A stretch of DNA of 64,000 nucleotides from Escherichia coli (lineage in GTDB: Bacteria > Pseudomonadota > Gammaproteobacteria > Enterobacterales > Enterobacteriaceae). A program made the position numbers. The stretch lies in the NCBI RefSeq assembly GCF_003790525.1, contig NZ_CP033636.1; one strand, given 5' to 3'. Numbering within the stretch: the first letter of the stretch is position 1; each line of letters starts with the position of its first letter. Shown here piece after piece: positions 45,001 to 48,000 of the stretch.

Positions 45001-48000
45001 ATAGCTACACTCGAATTCTCATACTGTATGTATAAACAGTATTGCGAGTTACAGAGAAAAGATCAAATCTCTCCGGTAACGCTATCGAGCCTGACGAAAA
45101 ATTAAGCTTTGTCACAAACACCAAAAACCATCTTTTACCGATAATGGCGAGCTGGCCTACGAAGAAGGTATACAAGCTAGGATGAAAGGATTCTGATGCC
45201 CCTCCCACCAAATTTTTTATCTCCTGAAGACCAGGCTGAGTACGATGCTTATATGTCAAGATTCAGCGAGATAAATCACTATTATGATTATCACACTGTC
45301 CCCGTGATTGACTGGTTCTTTAAACAAGCAACCGAGGCGTTGCATCACGAACTATGGATACCGGCCTGTACGAGCTTCCTGAACGGGATTGAAACATCAC
45401 TCATGGTTACGTTGAAGTCGCTGATGCTGAAACCAACAGTTAACGATCAGCATGCAGCTCCTGAGCTGGTGGACTTGGAGGGTATCTCCGTAATGAGTAA
45501 TGCCTTACTGAGAAAGGCCAAGCAGGAAGGGGTGCCGGTAGAATTACTTTCATTTCCAGCCGAGCAGGATATGTTGGTTAAGGTAGCAGCCGGGAGAACA
45601 CCTGAAGCAGAAATTGTCAGGCTGAGAAACAACCTATGCCATGGCAACATTCTGGAGTTTATCATGTCTGTTGATATCGGTACTTCAGGACCCATACGTA
45701 TTTTTACGCCTGAATGCTGTCGTGAACTGGCGCATGAACTTTCGTCCATTTCCAGGAATTGGGTGGTAGGTTTGCACAAGTACTGGGTCGACAACAATCT
45801 GATTTCCCCCTGAAGCTCCTTGAACCTTGCTTTCAGAAGCCAGGTGTATGAAACCCTATTGGATAATATTTAAAGCCAAAATATGGGGATCTCGTATTCG
45901 GTGACAGGCATGGTATAAATGATGTGTCTGAGCAACCATCATTGATAATCATGGAGTGAGTCATGAAATTAAAATACCTTCTGTTATGTGCAACTCTGTC
46001 TGTCGCCTTTACCTCCTCTGCGGTCCTTGCATCTGAAAACGGGAAAAAACCGATCCCGGGCAAATCAGATGTGATGGTTGCCGATATTTGTTTAAAACCT
46101 GAAATCCAAAGTGAAACCGATTATAAAAAAACGAAAGAACTGGTAAGGACTGAGTTTGAAGAAAACTTGCCTGTTGGATCTAAAATCAAAGAAAAAGACT
46201 TGAATGCCGTAATTGAAGCATTTGCTACTCGTAAAAGGGACACGCCGGAGCGAGCGGACCATTGCCAAGAAAACGTACGTGAAAGATACTGGGAAATGAA
46301 CCCGGTGAAAGATAAATAAAATACATTCACGTTGTATAATATAGAGGCTTCAATTCTGAAGCCTTTTTTATTTTCAGATTATTTTGATTCTGACAATAAT
46401 GAAATAAAATTGAGCATTATCGCTTAACACTGGATAAGAAAAAGAGCCATCTTTTATATTGGACAGGTTTGAATTTAAGGAATTTTGGATTCACAGTTTT
46501 CTGCGTTATTAGACGGCAAGGGCAATCTGGTATGATTCACCTAACACACGAATCTGGAAGGAAAAGTATATGGGTGACCTGGTCAGCAAAAATAGCATTG
46601 ACCGTTTAGAGCGATTTCATTCTTTGCTGGCGGGTCAGTACTGGACGTCCACTGACAGCATCCCTGAAGAGGGTATTGTGGCAGGGGATACACTGCTCAT
46701 TACGTCTTTGCGTGGCACTGTTGCAAATAGTCGGTGGTGATAAACTTATCATCCCCTTTTGCTGATGGAGCTGCACATGAACCCATTCAAAGGCCGGCAT
46801 TTTCAGCGTGACATCATTCTGTGGGCCGTACGCTGGTACTGCAAATACGGCATCAGTTACCGTGAGCTGCAGGAGATGCTGGCTGAACGCGGAGTGAATG
46901 TCGATCACTCCACGATTTACCGCTGGGTTCAGCGTTATGCGCCTGAAATGGAAAAACGGCTGCGCTGGTACTGGCGTAACCCTTCCGATCTTTGCCCGTG
47001 GCACATGGATGAAACCTACGTGAAGGTCAATGGCCGCTGGGCGTATCTGTACCGGGCCGTCGACAGCCGGGGCCGCACTGTCGATTTTTATCTCTCCTCC
47101 CGTCGTAACAGCAAAGCTGCATACCGGTTTCTGGGTAAAATCCTCAACAACGTGAAGAAGTGGCAGATCCCACGATTCATCAACACGGATAAAGCGCCCG
47201 CCTATGGTCGCGCGCTTGCTCTGCTCAAACGCGAAGGCCGGTGCCCGTCTGACGTTGAACACCGACAGATTAAGTACCGGAACAACGTGATTGAATGCGA
47301 TCATGGCAAACTGAAACGGATAATCAACGCCACGCTGGGATTTAAATCCATGAAGACGGCTTACGCCACCATCAAAGGTATTGAGGTGATGCGTGCACTA
47401 CGCAAAGGCCAGGCCTCAGCATTTTATTATGGTGATCCCCTGGGCGAAATGCGCCTGGTAAGCAGAGTTTTTGAAATGTAAGGCCTTTGAATAAGACAAA
47501 AGGCTGCCTCATCGCTAACTTTGCAACAGTGCCGGCGAAGCTTATCAGCGCTTCCAGTTGCGGACGCTTGACATCCTTGCCGGATGCCTTGTCGCTAAAA
47601 GCGCGATCAACCTTGACGCCTTCCAGTTGCCGTTCCGGGTTCTGGTCGAAGGTGCTGACCCTGATATACCCAATGCGCTGTCCAGTCATGGAATTCCCTG
47701 CAAAATGTCAGGGAAGACTCTATGACCTTCAACGAGATATGTCAATAAATTCAAAATTCAATCCTATCCTGACGCAATTTACACATGGCATCTGACATCA
47801 GGTTAGGGTATGCCTCAACCTGACGGCGGCGAATCACAAGCGTCCGGTTTGACGCTGGTTTCGGTCGCAGTGCTGGCCCGCGCCTGGAAGCGCTGATAGC
47901 ACTCCAGCCCGCAGAAATGCTCCACGTACTCGGCCCCTTCCGGCGTGAAGGCGGCATCGAGCGGGATTTCCTTGCAGCACACGCAGCAACTGGTGCTCGG

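What the first reader, a model, noticed from the sequence alone, without database searches (positions are those of the whole stretch)
45022..45813. Stand-alone protein with a HEPN-like RNxxxH motif, divergent from the SOS-boxed umuDC-like operon
**What the sequence shows.**
- The 205-aa ORF 45196-45813 looks all-helical in composition.
- It contains ...AEIVRLRNNLCHGNILEF..., which fits the R-N-x-x-x-H (Rx4H) signature of HEPN RNase domains at a plausible position in the C-terminal third.
- It shares a 190-bp divergent control region with the umuD-like gene. That region carries a consensus LexA box (45022-45041).
- No obvious partner (antitoxin-like) ORF is adjacent. The next gene encodes a secreted protein.

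**Established knowledge.** HEPN domains are common in toxin-antitoxin, abortive-infection and other conflict systems.

**Inference.** This is a candidate RNase toxin or abortive-infection effector, possibly influenced by the SOS response. The evidence is a single short motif, so it is weak.
Basis: inference. Interest (0 to 1): 0.5.

Follow-up and report, generated by a model that had tools for sequence, protein, structure and literature searches.

The report
Orphan HEPN RNase-like gene, IncHI plasmids
The 205-residue protein is a real HEPN-fold, probably RNA-cutting protein that sits alone in the conserved backbone of IncHI multidrug-resistance plasmids; it belongs to a small uncurated family often found beside anti-phage genes, but its function is untested and the nearby SOS (LexA) box belongs to the neighbouring umuDC operon.

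Summary
ORF 45196-45813, the RNNLCH motif and the LexA box 45022-45041 are all present as described.

**HEPN call: confirmed.**
- R144, H149 and G150 are invariant in 55 family representatives, some only 18% identical to the window protein. E66 and N151 are nearly invariant.
- A confident AlphaFold model (pLDDT 85) places E66 in helix 2 and R-x4-H at the end of helix 3, with a long insert between helices 2 and 3.

**Family and context.**
- The family is small: 133 clusters among 1.84 billion proteins. It passes no Pfam, NCBIfam, PADLOC or PHROG model. Its nearest family, PF18737, scores below threshold.
- The gene is IncHI backbone, found in 1050 plasmids, always annotated hypothetical.
- It has no conserved partner gene.
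- Distant relatives lie next to Gabija-like, Lamassu-like, restriction-modification, TIR and caspase-like genes.

**SOS link: not supported.** The LexA box tracks umuDC. It is absent where umuDC is absent.

**Other points.**
- The gene and the downstream secreted-protein gene form a divergent, recombining patch in an otherwise 98-100% identical backbone.
- The window allele uniquely has Met at the conserved basic residue 70.

**Best reading (inferred):** a latent, trigger-activated HEPN RNase acting as a conflict or defence effector.

The parts
45196..45813 (+). 205-aa ORF (WP_001130842.1, annotated 'hypothetical protein'): stand-alone HEPN-fold protein of an uncurated family
45391..45405 (+). 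E66-T-S-L-M70 in helix 2 (model helix 54-78). This is the HEPN 'E-x3-[KR]' element, but the window allele has Met in place of the basic residue.
   Evidence: E66 in 54/55 family representatives (D in one). Position 70 is R in 48, K in 6 and M in 1, the window protein; the acidic residue in helix 2 is described as part of the HEPN active site (PMC3710099).
45625..45648 (+). R144-N-N-L-C-H149-G-N151: the R-x4-H catalytic signature at the C-terminal end of helix 3 (model helix 139-149)
   Evidence: R144, H149 and G150 in 55/55 representatives, N151 in 54/55; the residue after R is N, H or D in 55/55; helix boundaries. [quoted passage not shown]
45003..45195 (.). 193-bp divergent intergenic region between the umuD-like and HEPN genes; no sigma-70 consensus promoter detected
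   Evidence: no promoter-like site in this stretch; the half nearest the HEPN gene is conserved among IncHI1-type loci and L018 independently of the LexA-box half.
45022..45041 (.). LexA (SOS) box TACTGTATGTATAAACAGTA. It is 19 bp upstream of the umuD start and assigned to the umuDC operon, not to the HEPN gene.
   Evidence: unique in the window, 0/100 shuffles. CTG-N10-CAG upstream of the HEPN gene only in the umuDC-linked loci scanned; none in the other 22 loci scanned, including L018.
44568..45002 (-). umuD-like gene (Peptidase_S24), divergent neighbour
   Evidence: E 2e-24; annotated umuD.
43325..44584 (-). umuC-like gene (IMS, IMS_C, DUF4113)
45963..46319 (+). 118-aa protein with a Sec signal peptide. 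It is co-inherited with the HEPN gene in IncHI-type loci only and is an unlikely antitoxin. A possible own promoter (extended -10 TGGTATAAA) lies at 45911-45919.
   Evidence: sequence; homologue downstream in 8 IncHI-like loci, none elsewhere; no significant family match (best Pfam E 0.18, far below threshold).
46343..46366 (+). Terminator-like hairpin after the secreted-protein gene. None lies between the two ORFs.
45246..46535 (.). Divergent (recombined) patch relative to a second IncHI2 lineage. It covers most of the HEPN ORF and all of the secreted-protein ORF.
   Evidence: DNA identity 96-100% on both sides, falling to 68-86% in the HEPN ORF and about 40-60% from the secreted-protein gene to 46485. 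UmuD 100% and UmuC 98.6% identical, against HEPN 75% and secreted protein 46%; dS 0.38 against 0.05-0.10.

Best explanation
ORF 45196-45813 encodes a single-domain member of the HEPN superfamily. It belongs to a small uncurated family nearest to the MAE_28990/MAE_18760-like clade.

Inferred mechanism
- It is most likely a metal-independent endoribonuclease.
[quoted passage not shown] Together, probably across a homodimer or oligomer interface, they would cleave RNA to leave 2',3'-cyclic phosphate ends.
- It has no cognate antitoxin, yet is carried intact by about a thousand conjugative IncHI plasmids. It must therefore be harmless at rest: poorly expressed, auto-inhibited, or narrowly specific.
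- I infer that it acts as a latent conflict or defence effector. An invading phage or competing element would switch it on, in the manner of single-protein HEPN abortive-infection systems.

What is shown and what is inferred
- Shown: fold, motif conservation, family size, plasmid-backbone location, absence of a conserved partner, recombining alleles, and the LexA box tracking umuDC.
- Inferred: RNase activity, latency, the trigger, and the defence role.
- The LexA box regulates the divergent umuDC operon. Any SOS effect on this gene would be incidental.
For: Motifs
- R144, H149 and G150 are invariant, and E66 and N151 are at least 98% conserved, in 55 representatives some of which are only 18% identical to the window protein.
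- The residue after R144 is always N, H or D, as described for catalytic HEPN domains (PMC3710099).

Fold
- The AlphaFold model (pLDDT 85.3, pTM 0.82) has helix 2 (54-78) carrying E66. A 60-residue insert follows. Helix 3 (139-149) ends in R-x4-H, and helix 4 spans 172-199. This is the canonical HEPN topology.

Sequence links
- Weak but repeated matches to PF18737 HEPN_MAE_28990: 12 of 55 relatives, best E 1.9e-4.

Selection
- Purifying selection, dN/dS 0.14-0.65.

Context
- IncHI backbone: 1050 plasmids, 959 with a full-length copy, 1032 predicted conjugative.
- Relatives sit on an ICE and a plasmid (L017).
- Relatives also lie next to type II restriction-modification, TIR and caspase-like genes (L002), a GajA-like gene (L024), LmuB plus a caspase-like gene (L026), an MmeI-type restriction-modification gene (L036), and QatC/QatD.
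- An RtcB RNA ligase, which repairs 2',3'-cyclic phosphate ends, lies 1 bp upstream in L030.
- No gene outside the IncHI-type loci recurs in more than four loci.

Precedent
- HepS is a stand-alone HEPN abortive-infection protein activated by a phage tail-tip protein.
Against: - No biochemical or genetic data exist for any family member. Literature searches were empty.
- The window protein matches no PADLOC, Pfam, NCBIfam or PHROG model.
- The commonest IncHI2 allele, the one in the window, has Met at position 70. There, 54 of 55 representatives have R or K. Its closest pairwise dN/dS is 0.65. This allele could therefore be attenuated.
- About 9% of plasmid copies are partial, so the gene is dispensable.
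- The defence-island association was counted without a matched background control.
- The RtcB adjacency is a single locus.
Confidence: 0.55

Rival explanations
1. It is the toxin of a toxin-antitoxin (addiction) module. Its antitoxin has not been recognised: a small RNA, a small unannotated ORF, the downstream protein, or a factor encoded elsewhere on the plasmid or host. The module would stabilise the plasmid by post-segregational killing.
For: - The gene is in a large low-copy conjugative plasmid backbone.
- The downstream ORF is co-inherited in IncHI-type loci, with no terminator between the two.
- In some distant relatives a second gene is tightly coupled: a DUF3037 gene overlaps the 3' end in L036 and L037, and a PIN-like ORF lies directly upstream in four Pseudomonas loci.
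Against: - No partner is conserved across the family.
- The downstream IncHI protein carries a signal peptide, so it would be exported away from a cytoplasmic RNase. It also appears to have its own extended -10 element (45911-45919).
- There are no tandem repeats and no Rfam hit of the type III antitoxin kind.
- No nucleotidyltransferase (MNT) gene is adjacent, and the motif is R-x4-H-G-N rather than the R-x4-H-x-Y of HepT toxins (the HepT motif is from my own knowledge).
- L010-L012 lack the downstream gene but keep the HEPN gene.
Confidence: 0.15
2. It is a HEPN-fold protein without nuclease toxicity. It could be a binding or regulatory protein, or a narrowly specific RNA-processing factor serving plasmid housekeeping. 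The window allele (R70M) may be catalytically weakened.
For: - Non-catalytic HEPN domains exist, for example sacsin, the C-terminal domains of nucleotidyltransferases, and MtlR.
- The protein is tolerated alone on 959 plasmids.
- The window allele has Met at the otherwise basic position 70.
- It matches no defence model.
- Its position in the IncHI backbone is conserved across IncHI1 and IncHI2, next to Tra2-region, dsb and umuDC genes.
Against: - According to PMC3710099, non-catalytic HEPN domains typically lose R-x4-H. Here R144, H149 and E66 are invariant or nearly so across the family.
- Relatives occur in defence islands and as mobile-element cargo rather than in housekeeping operons.
- The protein diverges much faster than its backbone neighbours: 54% against 81-84% identity between IncHI1 and IncHI2.
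Confidence: 0.2
3. It is an SOS-regulated effector. LexA bound at 45022-45041 would repress a divergent promoter, so the RNase would be induced together with umuDC after DNA damage, for example during prophage induction or conjugative entry of single-stranded DNA.
For: - A near-consensus LexA box lies in the shared 193-bp region.
- The divergent arrangement with umuDC is conserved in IncHI2, IncHI1 and related lineages, although synonymous sites are saturated.
- No independent sigma-70 consensus promoter was detected for the HEPN gene.
Against: - The box is 19 bp from the umuD ATG but 154 bp from the HEPN ATG.
- CTG-N10-CAG is found upstream of the HEPN gene only where umuDC is adjacent, and in none of the other 22 loci scanned.
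- L018 keeps about 115 bp of HEPN-proximal upstream sequence shared with IncHI1-type loci, but lacks both umuDC and the box. The gene's own control region is therefore separable from the box.
Confidence: 0.1

Closest known systems
HEPN superfamily (Anantharaman et al. 2013, PMC3710099); nearest curated family Pfam PF18737 HEPN_MAE_28990 (MAE_28990/MAE_18760-like)
   Same: - Four-helix core with an insert between helices 2 and 3.
- R-x4-H at the end of helix 3, followed by a polar residue.
- A conserved Glu in helix 2.
- Weak PF18737 matches over the motif region in relatives.
- UniRef names three relatives 'MAE-28990/MAE-18760-like HEPN domain-containing'.
- One relative lies next to a DNA methylase / restriction-modification gene (L036), as Table 1 of that paper reports for MAE_28990.
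   Different: - The window protein gives no PF18737 hit at E <= 1. Relatives score 13.8-17.5 bits against a cut-off of 26.8.
- Profile searches do not reach annotated PF18737 members.
- No ParB or ParA partner and no N-terminal fusion domain.
- The extended motif R-[NH]-x-[LI]-C-H-G-N and the Cys residues C58, C148 and C174 are specific to this family or subfamily.
HepS (Gifsy-1 prophage single-protein HEPN abortive-infection system; PMC13043305, PDB 9oik)
   Same: - A single HEPN-domain protein of about 200 aa with no partner gene, carried by a mobile element in Enterobacteriaceae.
- A latent nuclease switched on by an invader's protein. This is the working model adopted here.
   Different: - No detectable sequence similarity: profile searches of PDB sequences found nothing.
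- Carried on a plasmid backbone rather than a prophage.
- Trigger, target RNA and oligomeric state are unknown here.
HEPN/MNT (HepT-MntA) toxin-antitoxin systems (e.g. PDB 7ae2, 5yep, 8xdj)
   Different: - No adjacent nucleotidyltransferase gene.
- The protein is about 60-70 residues longer, with an N-terminal helix, a large insert between helices 2 and 3 and a beta-hairpin.
- The motif continues H-G-N rather than H-x-Y.
Lactococcal Abi HEPN proteins (AbiV, AbiA C-terminal domain) and the RnlA/LsoA RNase LS toxins
   Different: - No sequence relationship and no PADLOC hit.
- AbiV lacks the canonical His, whereas this family keeps R and H.
- RnlA and LsoA are multi-domain proteins with dedicated antitoxins.

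Membership tests
HEPN superfamily | [quoted passage not shown] | tested here: met
   - AlphaFold model (pLDDT 85.3): helices 36-50, 54-78, 139-149(-155) and 172-199, with a 60-residue insert at 79-138.
- Caveat: this is a predicted structure, and Foldseek was not significant.
HEPN superfamily | R-x4-6-H motif at the end of helix 3, conserved in the family, with a polar residue (N/D/H) after the Arg | tested here: met
   R144 and H149 are present in 55/55 representatives. Position 145 is N in 40, H in 14 and D in 1. The motif lies at the end of model helix 139-149. The criterion is taken from PMC3710099.
HEPN superfamily | Conserved acidic residue in helix 2, typically as E-x3-[KR] | tested here: inconclusive
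   E66 is present in 54/55 representatives and lies in helix 54-78. The basic residue at position 70 is R or K in 54/55, but it is Met in the window allele group: the window protein, P0002 and P0004.
HEPN superfamily | Metal-independent endoribonuclease activity | not testable with these tools
   No experimental data were found for any family member.
Pfam PF18737 HEPN_MAE_28990 | Score at or above the curated gathering threshold (26.8 bits) | tested here: not met
   The window protein gives no hit at E <= 1. Relatives score 13.8-17.5 bits. The best E among 55 relatives is 1.9e-4.
HEPN/MNT (HepT-MntA) toxin-antitoxin | Adjacent minimal nucleotidyltransferase (MNT) antitoxin gene | tested here: not met
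   In the window the neighbours are umuD and a signal-peptide protein. Clustering the neighbours of 40 loci found no conserved partner.
Known anti-phage defence systems (PADLOC-DB v2) | Match to a curated defence-protein model | tested here: not met
   No PADLOC family at E <= 1. Only the neighbours of distant relatives match: GajA, LmuB, restriction-modification, caspase and QatC/QatD models.
LexA (SOS) regulon | LexA box overlapping or next to the gene's own promoter, and conserved with the gene | tested here: not met
   The box is 154 bp from the start codon and 19 bp from umuD. It is present only in the umuDC-linked loci scanned and in none of the other 22 loci, including L018. LexA dependence of transcription cannot be tested here.

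The most novel reading that the evidence does not exclude
A single-gene, trigger-activated HEPN ribonuclease is fixed in the backbone of IncHI1 and IncHI2 multidrug-resistance plasmids. It would act as a plasmid-borne abortive-infection or anti-competitor system of a family not yet in any defence catalogue. Its recombining alleles (>=99%, 75% and about 53% identity groups, plus the R70M variant) would reflect an arms race with the phages or mobile elements that trigger it.
Probability: 0.3. Interest if true: 0.6.

Novelty: new member of a known kind. Interest (0 to 1): 0.4.

Why it matters
IncHI1 and IncHI2 plasmids are major vehicles of multidrug resistance in Salmonella, E. coli and Enterobacter. 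The window itself carries IS26 and a class 1 integron inserted just downstream of this locus.

A conserved backbone gene annotated everywhere as 'hypothetical' now has a confident fold and a testable catalytic site (E66, R144, H149).

If it is a latent RNase that restricts phages or rival elements:
- it would add a new single-gene family to the defence catalogue;
- it would bear on phage therapy against strains carrying IncHI plasmids, and on plasmid-plasmid competition.

If it is inactive or merely regulatory, the finding is an ordinary annotation improvement.

Tried and rejected
**Library and sequence searches**
- Direct searches with the window protein (Pfam, NCBIfam, PADLOC, PHROGs) gave no usable hit.
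- Profile searches of PDB sequences with A1 and A2 gave only chance hits.
- Foldseek against the PDB and BFVD gave nothing significant. The afdb50 library was unavailable.
- A second word-index search with the broader profile A2, meant to reach annotated PF18737 members, returned only the same family.

**Search for an antitoxin**
- Rfam and tandem-repeat scans for an RNA antitoxin found nothing.
- hhalign of the family profile against the 241-aa upstream neighbour in Thiomicrospira, which carries an RNRVHIH string, was not significant.

**Regulation**
- The sigma-70 scan found no promoter in the intergenic region, so the gene's promoter remains unmapped.
- SOS control is rejected as an intrinsic property of the gene.

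**Other**
- tblastn against phage genomes found no match.
- Literature searches for IncHI2 plus HEPN, and for the protein accession, gave no relevant paper. The 'HEPN' hits were the author name Hepner.
- RtcB linkage as a family trait is rejected. It occurs in one locus only, and L040 and L033 lack it.
- Fusion proteins (a methyltransferase fusion and a weak HTH fusion) are single cases, possibly gene-calling artefacts.
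Full report
**1. Observation.**
- The 205-codon ORF at 45196-45813 (+) is present.
- It contains AEIVRLRNNLCHGNILEF, with R144 and H149 encoded at 45625-45642.
- RNxxxH occurs only once among 16,298 residues of long ORFs in the window.
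- The ORF is divergent from a umuD-like gene (44568-45002, Peptidase_S24) and a umuC-like gene (43325-44584; IMS, IMS_C, DUF4113).
- The shared intergenic region is 193 bp.
- TACTGTATGTATAAACAGTA at 45022-45041 is a near-consensus LexA box. It has 2 mismatches, is unique in the window, and was matched in 0 of 100 shuffles.
- The next gene (45963-46319) starts with a Sec-type signal peptide, by direct reading of the sequence.

**2. Where it is.**
- The region is IncHI2 plasmid backbone. The 1.5-kb stretch is at least 99% identical in 494 of 919 matching plasmids, 907 of them predicted conjugative.
- In pSTM6-275 (IncHI2A, MOBH) the gene order is trhH, traG-N, HNH, HAD, a transglycosylase, a DsbC-like gene, DsbA, umuC, umuD, then this ORF (WP_001130842.1, 'hypothetical protein'), the signal-peptide ORF, IS26 and a class 1 integron.
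- By tblastn, 1050 plasmids encode a homologue, 959 of them full length. They fall into three main identity groups: at least 99% (471 plasmids), 60-80% (296; sampled rows about 75%) and below 60% (262; sampled rows about 53%).
- The ~53% group is the IncHI1-type backbone, with the same synteny.
- No phage genome encodes a homologue.

**3. Family.**
- A word-index search found 133 homologues.
- An exhaustive HMMER profile search of 1.84 billion cluster representatives found only 133 at E <= 0.001. The family is therefore small.
- Members are mostly stand-alone proteins of 180-220 aa from Gammaproteobacteria, with a few from other groups.
- In 42 closer homologues, Q44, C58, G64, E66, S68, N102, R142, R144, C148, H149, G150, N151, P172 and W189 are invariant.
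- In 55 representatives some of which are only 18% identical to the window protein, R144, H149 and G150 stay invariant, and E66, N151 and L118 are at least 90% conserved.
- The residue after R144 is always N, H or D.
- Position 70 is R or K in 54 of 55 representatives.
- These are the two sequence hallmarks listed for catalytic HEPN domains: R-x4-6-H followed by a polar residue, and an upstream E-x3-[KR] (PMC3710099).

**4. Fold.**
- AlphaFold2 with the 42-sequence alignment gave pLDDT 85.3 and pTM 0.82.
- The model has an N-terminal helix (10-32), helix 1 (36-50) and helix 2 (54-78, carrying E66).
- A partly disordered insert follows (79-138).
- Helix 3 (139-149) ends in R144...H149. A beta-hairpin (157-169) and helix 4 (172-199) complete the model.
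  - the HEPN toxin 7ae2 (8.7), Roquin (8.6), LsoA (8.2), Csm6 (7.8).

**5. Relation to curated families.**
- The window protein matches nothing in Pfam, NCBIfam, PADLOC or PHROGs.
- PF18737 (HEPN_MAE_28990) is the only HEPN model hit repeatedly by relatives: 3 of 42 and 12 of 55, best E 1.9e-4.
- Those hits score 13.8-17.5 bits against a 26.8-bit cut-off and cover the helix 3-4 region.
- UniRef labels three relatives as MAE-28990/MAE-18760-like HEPN proteins.
- I therefore file the protein in the HEPN superfamily, nearest to that clade, but not as a PF18737 member.

**6. The LexA box.**
- The box lies 19 bp from the umuD start and 154 bp from the HEPN start.
- Of the 30 loci scanned, a CTG-N10-CAG element upstream of the HEPN gene occurs only in the umuDC-linked ones, at a fixed distance from umuD.
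- L018 (Pseudocitrobacter vendiensis) has the HEPN gene and the secreted-protein gene but no umuDC.
- L018 still shares about 115 bp of HEPN-proximal upstream sequence with IncHI1-type loci, but lacks the box.
- The box is therefore the umuDC operator.
- No sigma-70 consensus promoter was found for the HEPN gene. Its regulation is unknown.

**7. Partner question.**
- I clustered the ORFs around 40 loci.
- Outside the IncHI-type loci, no gene recurs in more than four loci.
- The signal-peptide ORF follows the gene only in IncHI-like loci (8 loci) and is missing from L010-L012.
- Local couplings exist in sub-clades:
  - a PIN-like 321-aa ORF directly upstream in four Pseudomonas loci;
  - a DUF3037 gene overlapping the 3' end in L036 and L037;
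  - RtcB 1 bp upstream in one Acinetobacter locus.
- No RNA family or repeat array is present.
- The gene is thus stand-alone in IncHI plasmids.

**8. Neighbourhood of distant relatives.**
- In Thiomicrospira the gene follows type II restriction-modification, TIR and caspase-like genes.
- In Pseudomonas lini it is cargo of an ICE.
- A PADLOC scan covered 138 neighbouring ORFs within 3.5 kb in 21 non-IncHI loci. It found:
  - GajA-like (L024, E = 0);
  - LmuB (L026, E 4e-132) plus a caspase-like protein;
  - type IIG and type II restriction-modification genes;
  - QatC and QatD.
- L036 carries an MmeI-type enzyme immediately upstream.
- So at least five of 21 loci are defence islands. This is suggestive, but I ran no matched background control.

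**9. Evolution.**
- Between the window and a second IncHI2 lineage (L015), the backbone proteins are 98-100% identical (UmuD 100%). The HEPN protein is only 75% identical and the secreted protein 46%.
- DNA identity drops from about 45246, reaches about 40-60% between the secreted-protein gene and 46485, and returns to 96-100% at 46536-46685.
- dS is raised as well as dN: 0.38 against 0.05-0.10 in umuDC. L014 combines an L015-type umuDC with a window-type HEPN allele.
- The patch therefore reflects recombinational allele exchange, not merely fast protein evolution.
- dN/dS of 0.14-0.65 shows purifying selection, weaker than on umuDC.
- Between IncHI1 and IncHI2 the protein is 54% identical, against 81-84% for UmuD and UmuC.
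- The window allele group alone has Met at position 70. I cannot explain this. It may mean attenuated activity.

**10. Mechanism and rivals.**
- Best-supported reading, confidence 0.55: a latent HEPN endoribonuclease carried as a conflict or defence effector.
  - It would be harmless at rest and activated by an invader, as shown for HepS.
  - The fold, the motifs and the context are shown. The activity, the trigger and the role are inferred.
- Rivals:
  - a toxin-antitoxin toxin with an unrecognised antitoxin (0.15);
  - a non-toxic or regulatory HEPN protein, possibly weakened by R70M (0.2);
  - an SOS-induced effector (0.1).

**11. Verdict.**
It was too generous about the SOS link.
- The gene is a new, uncurated family within a very well-known superfamily. 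Some relatives are already auto-labelled HEPN. I rate it 'new member of a known kind'.
- Interest is moderate (0.4). HEPN proteins on mobile elements are common. But this one is fixed in the backbone of clinically important plasmids, is entirely uncharacterised, shows allele exchange, and has a clear set of mutants to test.

Noticed in passing
window 45246-46535 (compared with L015): A patch covering most of the HEPN ORF and the whole secreted-protein ORF is 40-86% identical at DNA level to a second IncHI2 lineage. The flanks on both sides are 96-100% identical. L014 carries a window-type HEPN allele on an L015-type umuDC background. This points to allele exchange by recombination.
   Followed up: partly
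window 45403-45405 (codon 70): The window allele group has Met where 54 of 55 family representatives have Arg or Lys, the basic half of the HEPN E-x3-[KR] element. The 75% IncHI2 allele and the IncHI1 alleles keep Arg. The functional meaning is unknown.
   Followed up: partly
window 45911-45919: TGGTATAAA, an extended -10-like element, lies about 45 bp upstream of the secreted-protein ORF. That gene may have its own promoter. The consensus scanner did not report it because no -35 element is present.
   Followed up: no
window 46759-47481 and 48368-49381: An IS26 transposase gene and a class 1 integron integrase (intI1), with further resistance-region fragments, are inserted directly downstream of the locus. 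In relatives without this insertion (L014-L016, L018) a 1111-1113-aa ORF with no Pfam match follows instead.
   Followed up: partly
L030 4636-5904 and 6466-6927 (Acinetobacter sp. CFCC 10889): An RtcB RNA ligase gene (E 6e-131) ends 1 bp before the HEPN homologue, and a DUF6847 gene follows it. RtcB repairs 2',3'-cyclic phosphate RNA ends, the product of HEPN RNases. Seen in one locus only; L040 and L033 lack it.
   Followed up: partly
L036 2511-6943 and L037 2979-4297: In the most distant clade (31-33% identity) the HEPN gene is followed by an overlapping DUF3037 gene. In L036 it is also preceded, 2 bp away, by a 1159-aa MmeI-type IIG restriction-modification enzyme. This may be a three-gene operon.
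   Followed up: partly
L022 4202-5897, L024 4911-5879, L026 4820-5787, L041 4915-5883 (Pseudomonas): A 321-aa ORF with a weak N-terminal PIN match (E about 7e-4, below threshold) lies directly upstream of the HEPN homologue in four Pseudomonas loci. In L022 it is preceded by a 205-aa UmuC-like fragment. This recalls the known insertion of mobile cargo into rulB/umuC genes; that background is from my own knowledge and was not tested.
   Followed up: no
L021 2638-3198 and 5819-6379 (Billgrantia kenyensis): Two paralogous copies of the HEPN gene lie 2.6 kb apart on the same strand, separated by three ORFs without Pfam matches.
   Followed up: no
L002 5249-5974 (Thiomicrospira aerophila): The 241-aa ORF 27 bp upstream of the HEPN homologue contains LRKLRNRVHIH, a possible second R-x-H HEPN-like motif. 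It lies in an island with type II restriction-modification, TIR and caspase-like genes. hhalign to the family profile was not significant.
   Followed up: partly
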